Shown here: one piece after another, positions 6,627 through 21,499 of the stretch
How the letters are laid out: each line of letters begins with the position of its first letter
Numbering within the stretch: position 1 is the stretch's first letter
Source: Veillonella parvula
Lineage (GTDB): Bacteria; Bacillota; Negativicutes; Veillonellales; Veillonellaceae
Length of the DNA: 64,000 nucleotides
Reading direction: 5' to 3'
Assembly (NCBI RefSeq): GCF_945949885.1
Contig: NZ_CAMFFZ010000005.1
Coordinates: 13,010 to 77,009 of the forward strand
Position numbers and translations under genes: made by a program
The notes under the pieces: model-generated
Databases searched by the model: none
What the model saw: the letters and a program-made list of their open reading frames with translations, nothing else
What the model was told of the DNA's origin: nothing

Positions 6627-7649
6627 GTGATTGCTATACGAAATGTAACGAAAGAATTTGATGTTAATAAGCAAAAGGTTACTGCATTATCTGATGTAAA
6701 CTTTACCATAGAAAAAGGAGACATATTTGGCATTATTGGCTTCAGTGGAGCTGGCAAATCTACACTGTTACGAATGATTAATGCTTTAGAGGTACCTACC
6801 TCTGGTCATATTGAAATAGATGGTGTGAATATCAATGGCTTAAGTTTTAGCGAGCTCAGAAAGGTTCGTAAGCGCATCGGCATGGTGTTTCAACAGTTTA
6901 ATTTATTGAATGCTAAATCTGTGTATGATAATGTGGCTATCCCGCTAATTCTTAATAGGTTACCAAAATTCGACATTGATAAAAAGGTTAAAACCTTATT
7001 AGACTTTGTTGATTTAGGCGATAAAGCAAATGCATATCCTGGAGAATTATCTGGTGGTCAAAAACAACGCGTTGGTATTGCCCGTGCATTAGCTACAGAT
7101 CCATCTATATTGCTTTGTGATGAAGCAACCAGCGCTCTAGATCCTGATACAACAGAATCTATATTACAATTACTAGAACGTGTTAATCGTGAACTAGGAG
7201 TAACAGTAGTTATCGTAACTCATGAGATCGATGTAATTCAGAAAATATGTAATCGAGTTGTAGTTATGGAGCATGGAAAGCTCATAGAGAGCGGATCTGT
7301 ACTTGAGGTGTTTAGTAAACCTAAACACGAAACAACAAAGCGATTTGTTAGAACTGTAATTCCTGATGAAATTCCATCAACAGTGAAACATACATTAGCT
7401 TGTGATAAAAGGCTATACACAATTCTTAAGATGCATTTCTTAGGAAATAATACGACAGATAATGTTCTATATCATATTAATAAAACCTTTGATTTAGAAA
7501 CGAGTGTATTATTTGCTACGGTAACAGAGTTAGAACATACTGCACTTGGTATATTCATTGTTCGGTTTATTGGCGATGATCTTGAGGTGGGCAAGGTAAA
7601 AGAGTATCTTATTGCTCAAGGTATTGAATGGCAGGAGGTGACACTATAA
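6627..7649 (+). CDS. metN: methionine ABC transporter ATP-binding protein
   Basis: Walker A GFSGAGKST, signature LSGGQKQRVGIARAL, Walker B LLCDEATSALD, and a C-terminal NIL-type domain. GTG at 6627 has an AAGAGG RBS. The ATG at 6603 has none. Confidence 0.9.
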   Translation: MIAIRNVTKEFDVNKQKVTALSDVNFTIEKGDIFGIIGFSGAGKSTLLRMINALEVPTSGHIEIDGVNINGLSFSELRKVRKRIGMVFQQFNLLNAKSVYDNVAIPLILNRLPKFDIDKKVKTLLDFVDLGDKANAYPGELSGGQKQRVGIARALATDPSILLCDEATSALDPDTTESILQLLERVNRELGVTVVIVTHEIDVIQKICNRVVVMEHGKLIESGSVLEVFSKPKHETTKRFVRTVIPDEIPSTVKHTLACDKRLYTILKMHFLGNNTTDNVLYHINKTFDLETSVLFATVTELEHTALGIFIVRFIGDDLEVGKVKEYLIAQGIEWQEVTL

Positions 7650-11177: not shown

Positions 11178-13033
11178 TCTGTCACCTCCTGAGATGCTAA
11201 AATTTGTTGATATACAGTTGAAGTGTTTGCTAGCTCATCATGTGTGCCATAGCCTGCTACTTGTCCACGATTGATAATTAAGATATGATCTGCTTTTTTT
11301 GCAGCACTTACCTTTTGCTCCACAGAGATGAGGGCGGGTCGATTATCCTTTTGCAATTCTTTGTGTAATGCTGTACGAACGGCACGTTCTGTGGTGCCAT
11401 CGAGGGCAGAGAAGCTATCATCGAATATGAATAAATCAGGTTTACGTACTAAGGCTCTAGCCATAGCAAGGCGTTGCCGTTGACCACCGGATAGATTAGT
11501 GCCACCTTGGGCAACCATATGTTGGTAACCACCATCAAGGCGATTGATAAATTCATCAGCCTTGGATAGACGACATGCATTTTCTACATCTTGAGTAGTA
11601 ACTTCTTGATTTGGTGCTGTACCATATCGTACGTTCATGTCTACCGTACCAGTAAATAAATAAGCTCGTTGTGGCACATAACCAATGCGAGCGCGCAAGT
11701 CATCTACATTCCATTCGTAGATGGACTTACCTTTAAATAGAATATCGCCAGACTCAATTGAGAATAGGCGAGGGATAAGGTTTGTAATCGTACTTTTACC
11801 TGACCCAATATCACCCATAATAGCTAAAGTTTCACCGTGATGTACCGTAAAGGAAATATTTTCTAAAGTCGGTGATTCCGCATTATCGTAGCGGAACGTA
11901 ACGTTGCAGAACTCGAGAAGAGGTGTATCATCGCTTGTCGATGTCGATGTCGATGTCGATGTCGATGTCGATGTCGATGTCGATGTCGATGCCGCAATGT
12001 TTTTGCTATTTTCTAGATTAGCCATATGATTCATAGGATAGGAATCTAAATTTGTATCATTTTTATTATATGGCTCAGGGAATATATCCGAGTTTTTGTG
12101 TTCTAACAACTCTCGAATACGGGTGTAGCATACAATAGCTTCAGGAATATCGATGATTACGAAAATAGCCATGAGCATACTTAATAAAATGAGGTTAGCG
12201 TATTCGATGACGGCTATGATATCCCCTACCTGTAGTGAGCCCATGCTGACGTTATGTCCGCCGAGCCATAGGATGGCAACGGTACTCATATTAAATAGAA
12301 TCAATATGGTAGGCAAACCAATGGCAAAGGTTTGGCGCAATCGTCTATTGAGTTGTGCTGTTTCTGTAAACATACAGATTTCTTTTTTGTTTTCGTAGCT
12401 TCGCCTGTTGAAAGCTCGTATAACAGGCATGCCCACAATATGATCGCGTACCGTGTCTGTAATGTCATCTAACTTCAGCTGTATCGCTTTGATGAGCGGT
12501 AAAGCACGATTTTCAATAAAGATGATAGTGAGTATCATACAAGTCATAACGACGAGGATGACGAGACCTAGTTGCCAGCTTTTATAGAATGTAAGACCTA
12601 AACCGACACAAATCATAAGCGGCATAGGGAGAATCATATTTAATCCTTCTCCTAGAACCGATTGGATTTTCTCTACGTCGCGGCTTGTTCGCATGAGTAT
12701 GGTACCGGTGCCAAAGTGTGTGAAGTCTCGTAGTGAAAAGTATTGTAGGGATGTTACCAAATCATTGCGTAATTCCTTGCTCATAGAGGCAGAGATGTGG
12801 GCACTCATGGCTACGCCTAGAATAGCGGATAGCACAGTTAGTAATGCCACAATAAGCATGTTCATGCTAGAGTTTGTGATCATGTCTAAATCGCCACGAA
12901 GTACGCCATCATTGATGATGGATGCCGTTAAGGTTGGTATATATAATGTGCCTGCCACGGTGAGTAACGAAAGAATTGATACGATGATGACTGGAAACCA
13001 TAAAGGTTTTATATAGCGTATAAAAGGTTTCAT
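11174..13033 (-). CDS. ABC exporter, fused permease/ATPase (heterodimer partner A) with a poly(Ser-Thr) linker
   Basis: Six-TM domain, then a linker containing (ST)9, then Walker A GDIGSGKST, signature LSGGQRQRLAMARAL and Walker B LFIFDDSFSALD. Confidence 0.9.
   Translation of the reverse strand: MKPFIRYIKPLWFPVIIVSILSLLTVAGTLYIPTLTASIINDGVLRGDLDMITNSSMNMLIVALLTVLSAILGVAMSAHISASMSKELRNDLVTSLQYFSLRDFTHFGTGTILMRTSRDVEKIQSVLGEGLNMILPMPLMICVGLGLTFYKSWQLGLVILVVMTCMILTIIFIENRALPLIKAIQLKLDDITDTVRDHIVGMPVIRAFNRRSYENKKEICMFTETAQLNRRLRQTFAIGLPTILILFNMSTVAILWLGGHNVSMGSLQVGDIIAVIEYANLILLSMLMAIFVIIDIPEAIVCYTRIRELLEHKNSDIFPEPYNKNDTNLDSYPMNHMANLENSKNIAASTSTSTSTSTSTSTSTSTSDDTPLLEFCNVTFRYDNAESPTLENISFTVHHGETLAIMGDIGSGKSTITNLIPRLFSIESGDILFKGKSIYEWNVDDLRARIGYVPQRAYLFTGTVDMNVRYGTAPNQEVTTQDVENACRLSKADEFINRLDGGYQHMVAQGGTNLSGGQRQRLAMARALVRKPDLFIFDDSFSALDGTTERAVRTALHKELQKDNRPALISVEQKVSAAKKADHILIINRGQVAGYGTHDELANTSTVYQQILASQEVTE
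11937..11990. repeat. perfect hexanucleotide tandem repeat (GTCGAT)x9 inside the ABC exporter CDS
   Basis: Nine uninterrupted GTCGAT units counted directly. In frame, encoding STSTST... between the TMD and NBD. Confidence 0.95.
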
Positions 13034-20037: not shown

Positions 20038-20159
20038 TCTTTCACATCTTTAGTTTGAAAACTATAGATCAAACTTTCAGAACTTACAAATGACATCCTT
20101 AAGCTGAACTTTGCTTAAGAAATAGAACACATAACTATCAAACCTATAAAACTTATACA

Positions 20160-20188
20160 AAAGACCTCCCGTTGGGAGGTCTTTTTGT
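20160..20188 (+). terminator. rho-independent terminator of metY
   Basis: AGACCTCCC GTT GGGAGGTCT followed by TTTTT. Confidence 0.85.
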
Positions 20189-20258
20189 TGGTATGTGCTA
20201 ATTTTATAAGAATAAAAAGTTGTATAGGTGTAATACAACCTTGATAGAATGGATATAT

Positions 20259-20292
20259 AAAAAGACCTTGGATTCAATGATCCAAGGCCTTT
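20259..20292 (-). terminator. minus-strand intrinsic terminator ending the PepSY-gene transcript
   Basis: CCTTGGAT / ATCCAAGG stem. On the minus strand it is followed by TCTTTTT. Confidence 0.6.
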
Positions 20293-20517
20293 AAGGGAGT
20301 ATAGTGTGTGTAACGTTTGGTCTGTGGTGTGTGCACAGACCGTTTTCCTATTGTGTGAGATAGGATGTTAGGGAACCCGTGGTTAGTGTTACGGGCTCTC
20401 TGAGAGTGTGTTAGAGAGTGTATCCAAAGGATACAGTGTGTATAGTATGTGTGTTATATGTGTAGTGTGTCATCTAAGTGGGTTAGGATAGGGTTTCACT
20501 TGATGAAAGAAAAAATC
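20293..20517 (-). other. structured CA-rich 3' region (candidate 3'UTR-derived or independent RNA)
   Basis: Five short hairpins lie between the PepSY stop and the terminator: 20319-20341, 20347-20364, 20376-20395, 20396-20418 and 20420-20434. At least seven GTGTG (minus strand CACAC) motifs sit mostly in loops and linkers. Confidence 0.35.
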
Positions 20518-21105
20518 TTAGTATTTTGTGTTTTTAACTTTAGCGCTAATAACTTTACCGGATGTAGCGTCTACTTTTACTTCAGCATTTTTACCACCGC
20601 CAGTTGTCATATCGAATTCATATACAACTCTGCCGTTTTCACGTTCAACAGTCCAATCCATAGTTTGGAAATCAGAACCAACTTTTTCCATAGCTTTTGT
20701 TTCAGCTACTTCAGGAATGATGATGTTTTGAACGTTAATTGTTTTAGAAGCTTTGGAGTAACCTTTTACTTCTTTACCAACGATTTGACCAGATGCTTCG
20801 TCTACTTTAATTTCTACTTCACGGTTGCCATAATAACCTTCTACTTCATAGTAAGGATTGTGTTTTGCGTCATAGGAAATAGATTTTACAGTAGCGCCAG
20901 GGAATTGTTGTTGGAATACTGTAATAGCGCCCATATAATCAACAGAATAGTTAGCTTGTGCGGATGGAACAACGCTACCAACACCATTCCAGTTGCTATG
21001 GTTGTTGTAACTATGGTTGCTAGCTGCACCAACTACACCTGCTAATAATACTGTACTAACGCCAAATGCACATAGTACTTTGGATACTTTCTTAACATTT
21101 TTCAT
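20518..21105 (-). CDS. secreted tandem PepSY-domain protein
   Basis: Signal peptide (MKNVKKVSKVLCAFGVSTVLLAGVVGAA) and two PepSY-like modules (...YEVEGYYGNREVEIKVDEASGQIV; ...VYEFDMTTGGGKNAEVKVDATSGKVI). GGAGG RBS before the ATG at 21105. Confidence 0.8.
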   Translation of the reverse strand: MKNVKKVSKVLCAFGVSTVLLAGVVGAASNHSYNNHSNWNGVGSVVPSAQANYSVDYMGAITVFQQQFPGATVKSISYDAKHNPYYEVEGYYGNREVEIKVDEASGQIVGKEVKGYSKASKTINVQNIIIPEVAETKAMEKVGSDFQTMDWTVERENGRVVYEFDMTTGGGKNAEVKVDATSGKVISAKVKNTKY

Positions 21106-21372
21106 AAGCAATGCCTCCTGATACCAAATTATAATTTTTGTTTAGTTACGATTTTATGAAAGTAGATTTTACTCAATCTACTTATGTATAATTTAATCTT
21201 GTTATATGAAAATAAGATTAAATTAAATGATTTTTGTATGAAGATGAGTATATCTTTTAGTTATTATGAACTATTGATAATAACTATTAGCTATAGTCAA
21301 AATTAAAAAGTACAAAAAACATAGTATATATAATATTAGACTATATAGTAAACTAAAAGTCAAACATTATAG

Positions 21373-21401
21373 TTGACAATTAAAAATGCAAGTGCTTTAA
21401 T
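21373..21401 (+). promoter_or_regulatory. candidate promoter of bioY
   Basis: TTGACA (21373-21378), 17-nt spacer, TTTAAT. Confidence 0.35.
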
Positions 21402-21499
21402 TTAGATAGTTAGTAGTTTGTTTTCGTGTTATCTTGGATTTTTATTCTCCATTGATAGCACAAATTCCTGCTTAGGTCTGTTATGAATGGAGGTATACC

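What the first reader, a model, noticed from the sequence alone, without database searches (positions are those of the whole stretch)
20259..20517. CA-rich, multi-hairpin RNA element between the PepSY gene and its terminator
The ~225 nt between the PepSY stop codon and a minus-strand intrinsic terminator (20266-20287 plus T-run) fold on paper into five consecutive short hairpins. On the plus strand at least seven GTGTG motifs occur. On the transcribed minus strand these become CACAC/ACACA and sit mainly in the loops (CACACAC, CUCACACA, AACACUAACC, AACACACUCUC) and in a long G-poor linker. Repeated single-stranded motifs displayed on a hairpin array are how protein-sponge RNAs such as the CsrB/RsmZ class are built, though the motif here is different. 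The element could be a 3'UTR-derived sRNA, a decoy for an ACA-specific RNA-binding protein or endoribonuclease, or a stabiliser.
Basis: partly seen in the sequence, partly recalled or inferred. Interest (0 to 1): 0.6.

Follow-up and report, generated by a model that had tools for sequence, protein, structure and literature searches.

The report
Conserved CA-rich tail on Veillonella PepSY mRNA
The stretch is a real, conserved and folded RNA tail on the message for a secreted Veillonella protein, rich in exposed C/A tracts, and it may act as a landing pad for a matching G/U-rich RNA made elsewhere in the genome, though its function is untested.

Summary
Window 20256-20517 (minus strand) is the 3'UTR of a two-PepSY-domain secreted-protein gene of Veillonella. 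It is G-poor. It holds 9 of the window's 62 CACAC hits, folds far better than shuffles (z -8.7) and ends in an intrinsic terminator. RNA-library contigs cover gene and tail as one piece.

It evolves more slowly than synonymous sites. Its hairpins are supported by compensatory changes, and its 35-nt C/A linker is nearly invariant. No Rfam family matches.

A second, unlinked PepSY gene carries its own CA-rich structured 3'UTR. Distant orthologues keep CA-rich, G-poor tails even where the sequence no longer aligns.

The genome gave no match to Hfq, CsrA, ProQ, Rho, RRM or MazF/PemK profiles, so a CsrB-like protein sponge, a rut site and an ACA-nuclease decoy each lack a partner. KhpA/KhpB are present.

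My best reading (about 0.4) is an RNA docking platform. An equally conserved GU-rich 3'UTR of another secreted-protein gene is complementary to the shared CA box. Support is strong for the paralogous element and for a sister lineage, and weak for this element itself. This would be GcvB-like logic without Hfq. It is an undescribed RNA family whose mechanism is unproven.

The parts
20518..21105 (-). Coding sequence of a secreted protein with two PepSY domains (195 aa from the ATG at 21105; signal peptide; stop TAA at 20518-20520)
   Evidence: ORF listing. Pfam PepSY PF03413, E 8.6e-18, two stretches. Orthologues at 81-99% identity in named Veillonella records.
21106..21227 (-). 5'UTR and promoter-proximal region of the same transcript
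   Evidence: RNA-library contigs that cover the gene reach 21155, 21167, 21172 and 21227 in four runs and then stop. There is no cover at 21275-21475.
20470..20506 (-). Hairpin 1, just after the stop codon: a 10-bp stem and a 16-nt loop carrying the conserved CCUAACC motif
   Evidence: Fold. Six of 10 pairs show compensatory change. Three lineages have unrelated stem sequences but the same loop motif.
20436..20470 (-). Unpaired C/A-rich linker, an almost pure alternation of A with C or U. It is invariant in 17 of 17 genus genomes and 97.5-100% identical in pairwise comparisons.
20436..20447 (-). 12-nt CA box (UACUAUACACAC) shared with the second PepSY 3'UTR. It is perfectly complementary to the GU box of an unlinked 3'UTR (own genome contig C17, about 11596-11610, minus strand).
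20419..20435 (-). Hairpin 2 (6-7 bp stem, 3-4 nt loop)
   Evidence: 91.8% of cells paired. A 1-nt loop insertion in some species keeps the stem and breaks any reading frame.
20376..20418 (-). Hairpins 3a and 3b. The AGAGAG strand can pair either upstream (CUCUCU) or, extended, downstream. The loops are C/A-rich and carry C/A insertions in other species.
   Evidence: 95.0% and 91.6% of cells paired; alternative helix, 86.5%.
20346..20365 (-). Hairpin 4 with loop CUCACACA
   Evidence: 89.7% paired. It is replaced by a different hairpin in the V. denticariosi-type sequence.
20319..20341 (-). Hairpin 5: an 8-bp stem with loop CACACAC. The loop is kept in all 40 sequences, including one with a wholly different stem.
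   Evidence: 4 of 8 pairs compensatory, 99.7% paired.
20293..20318 (-). Unpaired 3' linker with a C/A run followed by a CUCCCUU motif just before the terminator
   Evidence: nearly invariant. A similar CUCC(C)UU motif occurs in 3'UTRs of orthologues in another genus.
20256..20292 (-). Intrinsic terminator (13-bp stem, 6-nt loop, U-run)
   Evidence: RNA-library contigs of three studies stop at 20285-20304. G-U wobble pairs fit only the minus-strand RNA.

Best explanation
Shown: the element is the long 3'UTR of the mRNA for a secreted two-PepSY-domain protein of Veillonella. It is transcribed in one piece with the gene and ends at an intrinsic terminator. It is under purifying selection as an RNA. 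It is built so that G-free C/A tracts stay single-stranded between short hairpins. Inferred: these tracts work as a docking platform for a complementary G/U-rich RNA. The best candidate partner is the equally conserved GU-rich 3'UTR of an unlinked secreted-protein gene (weak PdaC-like domain). It sits between a small hairpin and its own terminator, the usual layout of a 3'UTR-derived sRNA. Pairing would either let that RNA control the stability of the PepSY mRNAs, or let the PepSY tails titrate it as an RNA sponge. This is the logic of GcvB with its C/A-rich targets and the SroC sponge, but without Hfq. Which RNA regulates which, and the physiological output, are unknown.
For: Transcription: in 4 RNA libraries from 3 studies, a single contig spans about 20285/20304 to 21155/21227, covering the CDS plus the element. 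The flanks have no cover.

Selection: against five of the seven compared species, the 3'UTR is 87-89% identical, where codon third positions are 76-82% and the DNA after the terminator is 34-66%. The linker is 97.5-100% identical.

Structure: 96.0% of 2184 cells are paired. Fourteen of 55 pairs carry compensatory changes, against 2.3 +/- 0.9 in shuffles (0 of 500 reach it) and 1-3 in slid controls.

Family: the only other comparable C/A window in the genome is the 3'UTR of a second PepSY gene. It is conserved in 52 of 61 genus genomes and folds with z -9.6. Orthologues at 59, 55 and 42% protein identity keep CA-rich, G-poor tails.

Partner:
- The 56-nt GU 3'UTR has 50 of 54 invariant columns (core 35 of 36) in 21 distinct sequences, against 20 of 33 at third positions and 1 of 24 downstream.
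- Its GU box is a perfect 15-nt complement of the CA box of the second PepSY tail and of the sister-lineage orthologues of this element. It is a 12-nt complement of the invariant linker here.
- The 14-mer or its complement occurs in 65 of 82 Veillonella genomes, usually twice (GU locus plus CA element). It occurs in 0 of 39 genomes of other genera, and the reversed-pattern control gives 0 in all 121 genomes.
- Duplex energies against 200 dinucleotide shuffles of the GU RNA: second tail z -3.3 (1/200); sister-lineage orthologues of this element z -5.0 (0/200) and z -3.2 (1/200), the first through three co-linear modules.
- Genome-wide, the second tail is the top complement to the GU RNA (69 of 100 nt covered, next non-self 40).
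Against: For this element in this genome the pairing signal is weak. The duplex is -29.8 against -23.7 +/- 3.1 (z -1.95, 8 of 200 shuffles as good). The element is not among the 25 best 100-nt windows for 7-mer complementarity to the GU RNA.

A 15-nt perfect match is expected about 0.6 times per genome by chance, and 12-mers are common. The case therefore rests on conservation and context, which I judged after seeing the match.

Two lineages show no significant pairing. The V. denticariosi type gives z -0.3 and -1.8, and G020 gives z -1.2. In G016 the GU-locus 3'UTR has no GU box, although its PepSY tail is CA-rich.

Within lineages both sides are almost invariant, so there is no pair-by-pair intermolecular covariation. 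Where the GU side varies (2 of 8 sister-lineage genomes) the CA side does not compensate.

Two C/A-rich and G/U-rich low-complexity sequences pair easily. The same data fit an inverted DNA duplication. No read-level data show either RNA's ends or abundance, and expression of the GU locus was not examined.
Confidence: 0.4

Rival explanations
1. Docking platform or sponge for a single-strand RNA-binding protein. The exposed C/A tracts and the CCUAACC and CACACAC loops bind a protein, most plausibly the KH-domain pair KhpA/KhpB. Binding would stabilise, localise or silence the PepSY mRNAs, or titrate the protein.
For: The architecture shows repeated motifs in loops and linkers. Loop motifs are kept while stems change. 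KhpA and KhpB are the only widely studied global RNA-binding proteins found in the genome. Hfq, CsrA, ProQ and RRM were not found. A 2026 preprint's discussion says a Thermus KhpB dimer binds a C-rich 10-mer RNA (10.64898/2026.10.12.757534; passages read). Two PepSY paralogues share the feature, as expected for a common trans-factor.
Against: No binding motif is known for KhpA/B, so nothing specific links them to C/A repeats. The passages read say the KhpB contacts are mainly to the backbone. No protein evidence of any kind was obtainable here. This reading does not explain the conserved complementary GU 3'UTR.
Confidence: 0.25
2. Passive stabiliser or insulator. The hairpin array and terminator simply protect an abundant mRNA from 3' exonucleases and stop read-through into the convergent metY-like gene. 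The G-poor linkers are kept only to avoid misfolding.
For: There is a dense hairpin array next to a strong terminator. A convergent gene lies 220 nt away. Hairpin number and identity vary between lineages, and some orthologues have only one hairpin plus a C/A tract.
Against: A spacer would not keep a 35-nt unpaired stretch invariant across species whose synonymous sites differ by about 20%. It would not keep specific loop motifs on changing stems. The same C/A signature would not recur on a paralogue that is only 23-25% identical in protein.
Confidence: 0.15
3. Source of a trans-acting 3'UTR-derived sRNA. It would be made by processing, or from a weak internal promoter (-35-like and -10-like hexamers at 20473-20444). 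It would use its C-rich and C/A seeds, such as CUCCCUU before the terminator, to pair with G-rich ribosome-binding sites of other mRNAs.
For: The conserved 3'UTR shares the mRNA's terminator, which is the usual layout of such sRNAs. G-poor RNAs with UCCC-type motifs are typical seeds in Firmicutes (recalled, not tested). A promoter-like site lies in the invariant linker. Orthologue tails in another genus keep CUCC(C)UU motifs.
Against: Promoter-like sites in the region are no more frequent than in shuffles (6 found, 6.7 expected). No genomic site matches the complement of the terminator-proximal seed with 3 or fewer mismatches, apart from the element's own antisense. No extended complementarity of 15 nt or more beyond chance was found. 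Contigs cannot show a discrete short species.
Confidence: 0.1
4. DNA-level feature. It could be alternating purine-pyrimidine (CA/TG) tracts prone to slippage or non-B DNA, a protein-binding DNA motif, or remnants of an inverted duplication, with no RNA function for the C/A tracts.
For: C/A tracts in the second PepSY tail vary by repeat-unit insertions and deletions. C/A insertions occur in a loop of this element. A perfect heptamer microsatellite follows the terminator in relatives. Complementarity between two transcripts equals one DNA motif present in two orientations.
Against: The compensatory changes and G-U wobbles fit only the minus-strand RNA. The linker here is invariant and not length-variable. 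The element is transcribed.
Confidence: 0.05
5. Decoy or substrate for an ACA-specific endoribonuclease (MazF-type), or a Rho-loading (rut) site.
For: There are many ACA triplets and a C-rich, G-poor unstructured composition.
Against: The 99.94%-complete genome gave no PemK/MazF toxin match and no Rho RNA-binding-domain match. A strong intrinsic terminator is already present.
Confidence: 0.03

Closest known systems
GcvB sRNA with its C/A-rich mRNA targets, and the mRNA-derived sponge SroC (Enterobacteria). PMC4474525 and PMC3879156: search listing and abstracts only.
   Same: A G/U-rich single-stranded seed faces C/A-rich, ACA-containing single-stranded tracts. An mRNA-derived RNA can titrate the sRNA. 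Here a conserved GU 3'UTR faces conserved CA boxes.
   Different: No sequence relation exists: the Rfam GcvB model scores 13.5 bits against a cut-off of 42 on the GU locus and does not hit the element. There is no Hfq. The C/A tracts lie in 3'UTRs, not at ribosome-binding sites. Both partners are 3'UTRs of secreted-protein genes. Nothing is experimentally shown.
CsrB/RsmZ-class protein sponges
   Same: An array of short hairpins displays one repeated motif in loops and linkers.
   Different: The motif is C/A, not GGA, and the RNA is G-poor. No CsrA was found. It is a 3'UTR of an mRNA, not a free-standing sRNA gene.
CrcZ of Pseudomonas, an Hfq/Crc sponge with 'CA motifs' (PMC4063720: search listing and abstract only)
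   Same: An RNA with several A/C-rich single-stranded motifs is proposed to sequester a regulator.
   Different: No Hfq was found in this genome. The motifs here are alternating A-pyrimidine runs, whereas the A-rich AANAANAA pattern is what I recall for CrcZ. There is no sequence relation in Rfam.
icaR mRNA of Staphylococcus aureus: a long 3'UTR with a UCCC-type anti-SD motif that pairs with its own 5'UTR (recalled, not read)
   Same: A long, conserved 3'UTR carries C-rich motifs and acts by base pairing.
   Different: Pairing between the 5'UTR and 3'UTR here is no better than for shuffles (-22.7 against -23.5 +/- 4.1; 167 of 300 as good).
   Same: A C/A-only single-stranded tract lies between stop codon and terminator and is read as an mRNA tag with an unknown reader.
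   Different: It comes from another phylum, the tracts are much shorter (18-32 nt), and no hairpin array or partner RNA is reported.

Membership tests
CsrB/RsmZ protein-sponge RNAs | Multiple GGA motifs exposed in hairpin loops | tested here: not met
   The loops carry C/A motifs and the RNA is 11% G.
CsrB/RsmZ protein-sponge RNAs | Cognate CsrA/RsmA protein encoded in the genome | tested here: not met
   Pfam CsrA gave 0 matches in the 99.94%-complete genome.
CrcZ-type Hfq sponge | Hfq encoded in the genome | tested here: not met
   Pfam Hfq gave 0 matches.
GcvB/SroC-type GU-seed and CA-target (or sponge) pair | C/A-rich single-stranded tract in the target or sponge | tested here: met
   The linker at 20436-20470 is unpaired and nearly G-free.
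GcvB/SroC-type GU-seed and CA-target (or sponge) pair | A conserved G/U-rich partner RNA complementary to the tract | tested here: inconclusive
   A candidate was found. The signal is strong for the paralogous tail and the sister lineage (z -3.3, -5.0, -3.2). It is weak for this element (z -1.95) and absent in two lineages.
GcvB/SroC-type GU-seed and CA-target (or sponge) pair | Sequence and structure homology to Rfam GcvB or SroC | tested here: not met
   No hit on the element. GcvB scores 13.5 bits against a cut-off of 42 on the GU locus.
icaR-type 3'UTR/5'UTR anti-SD pairing | The 3'UTR pairs with the mRNA's own ribosome-binding region better than chance | tested here: not met
   -22.7 against -23.5 +/- 4.1 kcal/mol.
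Rho-utilisation (rut) site | Rho factor present | tested here: not met
   Pfam Rho_RNA_bind gave 0 matches.
MazF/ACA-endoribonuclease decoy | A PemK/MazF-family toxin encoded in the genome | tested here: not met
   Pfam PemK_toxin gave 0 matches.
3'UTR-derived sRNA (processed or internally promoted) | A 3'UTR more conserved than neutral sites that shares the mRNA's terminator | tested here: met
3'UTR-derived sRNA (processed or internally promoted) | A discrete short RNA species with its own 5' end | not testable with these tools
   Only assembled contigs of RNA libraries were on offer, and contigs cannot show ends.
Any Rfam 15 family | Covariance-model match at or near the gathering score | tested here: not met
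   The best hits in or near the element are terminator-driven and far below their cut-offs. The same holds for the second tail and the GU locus.

The most novel reading that the evidence does not exclude
Veillonella, which gave no match to Hfq, ProQ or CsrA profiles, runs an mRNA-to-mRNA regulatory circuit through 3'UTRs. The CA-rich tails of the PepSY mRNAs act as sponges or targets for a GU-seed RNA carried in, or cut from, the 3'UTR of another envelope-protein gene. This would be an independent invention of the GcvB/C-A 'code' in diderm Firmicutes that couples the output of several secreted proteins.
Probability: 0.25. Interest if true: 0.8.

Novelty: new variant of a known kind. Interest (0 to 1): 0.6.

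Why it matters
Veillonella is an abundant human oral and gut commensal, and I found no post-transcriptional regulator described for it. Four full-text searches found no sRNA or 3'UTR element described in this genus at these genes. A survey of structured RNAs in V. parvula DSM 2008 (PMC8632094; passages and the one held supplement searched) does not mention PepSY or CA-rich motifs.

The genome gave no match to the profiles of the usual RNA chaperones. A conserved, structured 3'UTR family with a conserved complementary partner would therefore be a way into Hfq-independent RNA regulation in diderm Firmicutes. It would also shed light on the control of PepSY proteins, which were detected in the outer-membrane proteome but have no known function (PMC5491611, passages read).

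Tried and rejected
- **Small ORF in the linker.** An ATG opens a roughly 20-codon frame, but a 1-nt loop insertion in several species shifts the frame while keeping hairpin 2. Rejected.
- **Antisense small ORF on the plus strand** behind an SD-like sequence. The inferred peptide is not conserved in the V. denticariosi-type sequence (my reading). Rejected.
- **Third C/A-rich window** (contig C9). It is the antisense of a lipoprotein signal-peptide coding region. Rejected.
- **All PepSY genes carry such tails.** Only 2 of 5 PepSY loci do.
- **Own 5'UTR pairs with the 3'UTR.** Not above shuffles.
- **Long antisense partner by BLAST.** Nothing beyond chance-level 14-15-mers.
- **SD-like target of the terminator-proximal seed.** None with 3 or fewer mismatches.
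- **Pair-by-pair intermolecular covariation in the sister lineage.** Both sides are nearly invariant, and 2 of 8 GU variants are uncompensated.
- **Duplex-shuffle test restricted to the two invariant cores.** It was not run. That step was stopped, so the specificity of the 12-nt site in this element remains less well controlled than the whole-UTR test.
- **Expression ranking from contig depth.** PepSY contig figures were 12.6-245.6 and neighbour-gene contig figures 2.8-10.9, with no neighbour contig in one run. The tool warns that such figures cannot rank genes, so no claim of high expression rests on them.
- **Earlier-findings look-ups** by place and by sequence returned nothing.

Full report
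**What is there.** On the minus strand a 195-aa ORF (ATG at 21105, stop TAA at 20518-20520) encodes a signal peptide and two PepSY domains. Record titles of 56 related loci place it in Veillonella: parvula, hominis, rogosae, dispar, infantium, fallax and denticariosi, at 81-99% protein identity. From its two-domain architecture, and its spacing from a second PepSY gene, it is probably the counterpart of Vpar_0270. That protein was detected in outer-membrane preparations of V. parvula (PMC5491611, passages read). The equivalence is my inference.

Between the stop codon and an intrinsic terminator (stem 20261-20292) lie about 225 nt of G-poor RNA. Nine of the window's 62 CACAC hits fall here. 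The RNA folds at -67.3 kcal/mol against -34.3 +/- 3.8 for shuffles (z -8.7). It forms six short hairpins whose loops carry C/A motifs, and it has a roughly 35-nt unpaired linker that is an almost pure alternation of A with C or U. No Rfam family matches. The element is single-copy in its genome.

**Is it transcribed, and on which strand?** In four RNA libraries from three studies one contig each runs from 20285-20304 to 21155-21227. That is the coding sequence and the element in one piece, stopping in or just before the terminator, with no cover on either flank. These are assembled contigs. They cannot show strand, ends or level, and the tool calls contigs that stop at one place a weak hint. 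The strand follows from two observations. The terminator works only on the minus strand. The G-U wobble pairs in the helices would be A-C mismatches on the other strand.

**Conservation and structure.** Full-length homologues occur in 17 of 25 genus genomes searched, including the window's own. None occurs in 16 genomes of other genera of the order. Against five of the seven compared species, the 3'UTR is 87-89% identical. Codon third positions are 76-82% identical and the DNA beyond the terminator 34-66%. The linker is 97.5-100% identical and invariant in 17 of 17 sequences.

I built an alignment of the window plus 39 distinct sequences. These came from 55 of the 56 loci, after dropping one partial match. 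On that alignment 96.0% of cells pair and 14 of 55 pairs carry compensatory changes. Shuffles give 2.3 +/- 0.9 (0 of 500 reach 14) and slid controls give 1-3. Most double changes come from one divergent sequence (V. denticariosi type), so they represent few events.

That sequence is still telling. Hairpins 1 and 5 have quite different stems but the same loops, CCUAACC and CACACAC. A third lineage has yet another stem under the CCUAACC loop. One AGAGAG strand can pair either upstream or downstream, with 95.0% and 86.5% of cells paired respectively.

**A family tied to PepSY genes.** A genome-wide count of ACAC per 170 nt puts this element first, with 17. Second, with 16, is the 3'UTR of another PepSY gene about 25 kb away, outside the window. 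That tail is about 380 nt long. It has a long-range closing helix, an unpaired C/A tract of about 120 nt whose length varies by repeat units, three very conserved hairpins and a terminator. It folds with z -9.6, has no Rfam match, and occurs in 52 of 61 genus genomes.

The two proteins are only 23-25% identical, so shared ancestry alone would not have kept a neutral tail alike. The other three PepSY loci have ordinary short 3' ends. Orthologues of the window's gene at 59, 55 and 42% identity still have CA-rich, G-poor tails, with 10, 6 and 10 ACAC per 250 nt, although the sequences no longer align. Orthologues in another genus of the family are G-poor, with CUCC(C)UU motifs but only one ACAC.

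**Which partners are available?** The genome is 99.94% complete. It gave no match to Hfq, CsrA, ProQ, RRM, Rho or PemK/MazF profiles. KhpA and KhpB are present. This removes the cognate protein for a CsrB- or CrcZ-like sponge, for a rut site and for an ACA-nuclease decoy. A KH-protein platform remains possible. Pairing of the tail with its own 5'UTR is no better than chance.

**A complementary RNA.** I listed intergenic GU-rich heptamers. One lies in the roughly 95-nt 3'UTR of a 281-aa secreted protein on contig C17, which has a weak PdaC-like match below the Pfam cut-off. The GU box sits between a small hairpin and a strong terminator.

In 21 distinct sequences from 30 genus genomes, 50 of 54 pre-terminator columns are invariant, and 35 of 36 in the core. 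This compares with 20 of 33 third codon positions and 1 of 24 downstream columns. No Rfam family matches.

The GU box is a perfect 15-nt complement of the CA box in the second PepSY tail, and of the box in the sister-lineage orthologues of the window's element. It is a 12-nt complement of the last 12 nt of the invariant linker here, at 20436-20447. The 14-mer or its complement occurs in 65 of 82 Veillonella genomes, typically once at each locus. It occurs in 0 of 39 genomes of other genera, and the reversed-pattern control is 0 in all 121 genomes.

Duplex energies were compared with 200 dinucleotide shuffles of the GU RNA:

| Pair | z | Shuffles as good |
|---|---|---|
| Second tail (own genome) | -3.3 | 1/200 |
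| Sister-lineage orthologue G055 | -5.0 | 0/200 |
| Sister-lineage orthologue G023 | -3.2 | 1/200 |
| This element (own genome) | -1.95 | 8/200 |
| V. denticariosi type (G060), this element | -0.3 | 72/200 |
| V. denticariosi type (G060), second tail | -1.8 | 10/200 |
| G020 | -1.2 | 20/200 |
| Second tail, sister lineage (G055) | -0.6 | 42/200 |
| Second tail, sister lineage (G023) | -0.5 | 68/200 |

The G055 pairing runs through three co-linear modules, one of them a G-containing stretch.

Genome-wide, the second tail is the best complement to the GU RNA, with 69 of 100 nt covered against 40 for the next non-self window. The window's element is not among the top 25. In G016 the GU-locus tail lacks a GU box. 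Within the eight-genome sister lineage both partners are nearly invariant, and two GU-side variants are not compensated.

**Reading.** That the element is a functional RNA part of the PepSY mRNA is well supported. How it works is inferred. I favour a single-stranded C/A platform that pairs with the GU-rich 3'UTR RNA, acting as its target or its sponge. That partner is conserved, is laid out like a 3'UTR-derived sRNA, and matches the one box that all CA tails share.

For this element in this genome the support is modest. A 15-mer match alone is expected by chance (E 0.59). Low-complexity C/A and G/U sequences pair readily, and an inverted DNA duplication would look the same. A protein platform (KhpA/KhpB), a passive stabiliser and a trans-acting sRNA remain live rivals.

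**Novelty.** I found no description of these elements. Four full-text searches returned nothing relevant. The V. parvula survey in PMC8632094 reports other motifs, with no mention of PepSY in the passages or in the one held supplement. Other supplements of that paper were not held and could list further candidates. An earlier unchecked note of this scan, on a CPR bacterium, describes C/A-only tracts between stop codon and terminator. That suggests the theme may be wider.

Noticed in passing
L020:1774-1844 (relative G012); also L021, L023, L024, L014, L018 just after the terminator that corresponds to window 20256-20292: Several Veillonella species have a perfect heptamer microsatellite directly after the element's terminator (10.1 copies in G012; unit TCTATCC). 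Its unit resembles the motif in the loop of hairpin 1. It is missing from the window's own genome, where only two 1-mismatch 14-mers occur elsewhere.
   Followed up: partly
L028:1400-1500 (own genome C5, about 7400-7500, outside the window): The second PepSY gene appears split. A 206-aa signal-peptide and Pro/Thr/Val/Lys-rich ORF ends at 1467. The PepSY-domain frame is open from about 1401 but has no start codon before 1626. A run of nine A at about 1405-1413 lies at the junction. Possible causes are a homopolymer frameshift, phase variation, an assembly error or programmed shifting.
   Followed up: no
own genome C17:11534-11632 (L158:1135-1233, minus strand), outside the window: The GU-rich 3'UTR of a 281-aa secreted-protein gene is almost invariant across the genus (50 of 54 columns), with no Rfam match. 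It is a candidate 3'UTR-derived sRNA in its own right.
   Followed up: yes
window 20155-20245: Between the element's terminator and the convergent O-acetylhomoserine sulfhydrylase-like gene lie a second hairpin with a T-run on the minus strand (about 20213-20240) and a bidirectional terminator (about 20160-20190). One RNA-library contig from the neighbouring gene reaches 20245, past that terminator.
   Followed up: no
own genome C9:74910-75079 and C37:14451-14650 (outside the window): Arrays of a roughly 36-nt direct repeat with unique spacers showed up in the C/A scans. They look like CRISPR arrays.
   Followed up: no
window 21150-21172 (minus strand): The 5'UTR of the PepSY gene contains a 9-bp hairpin about 45 nt upstream of the start codon. 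It is conserved in position in the distant orthologues printed.
   Followed up: no
L227:2326-2400 (G055) and relatives: In the sister lineage the GU-locus 3'UTR begins with tandem CAAAAYUAA-like units (three in G055) ahead of the GU arm. Copy number differs between genomes.
   Followed up: no
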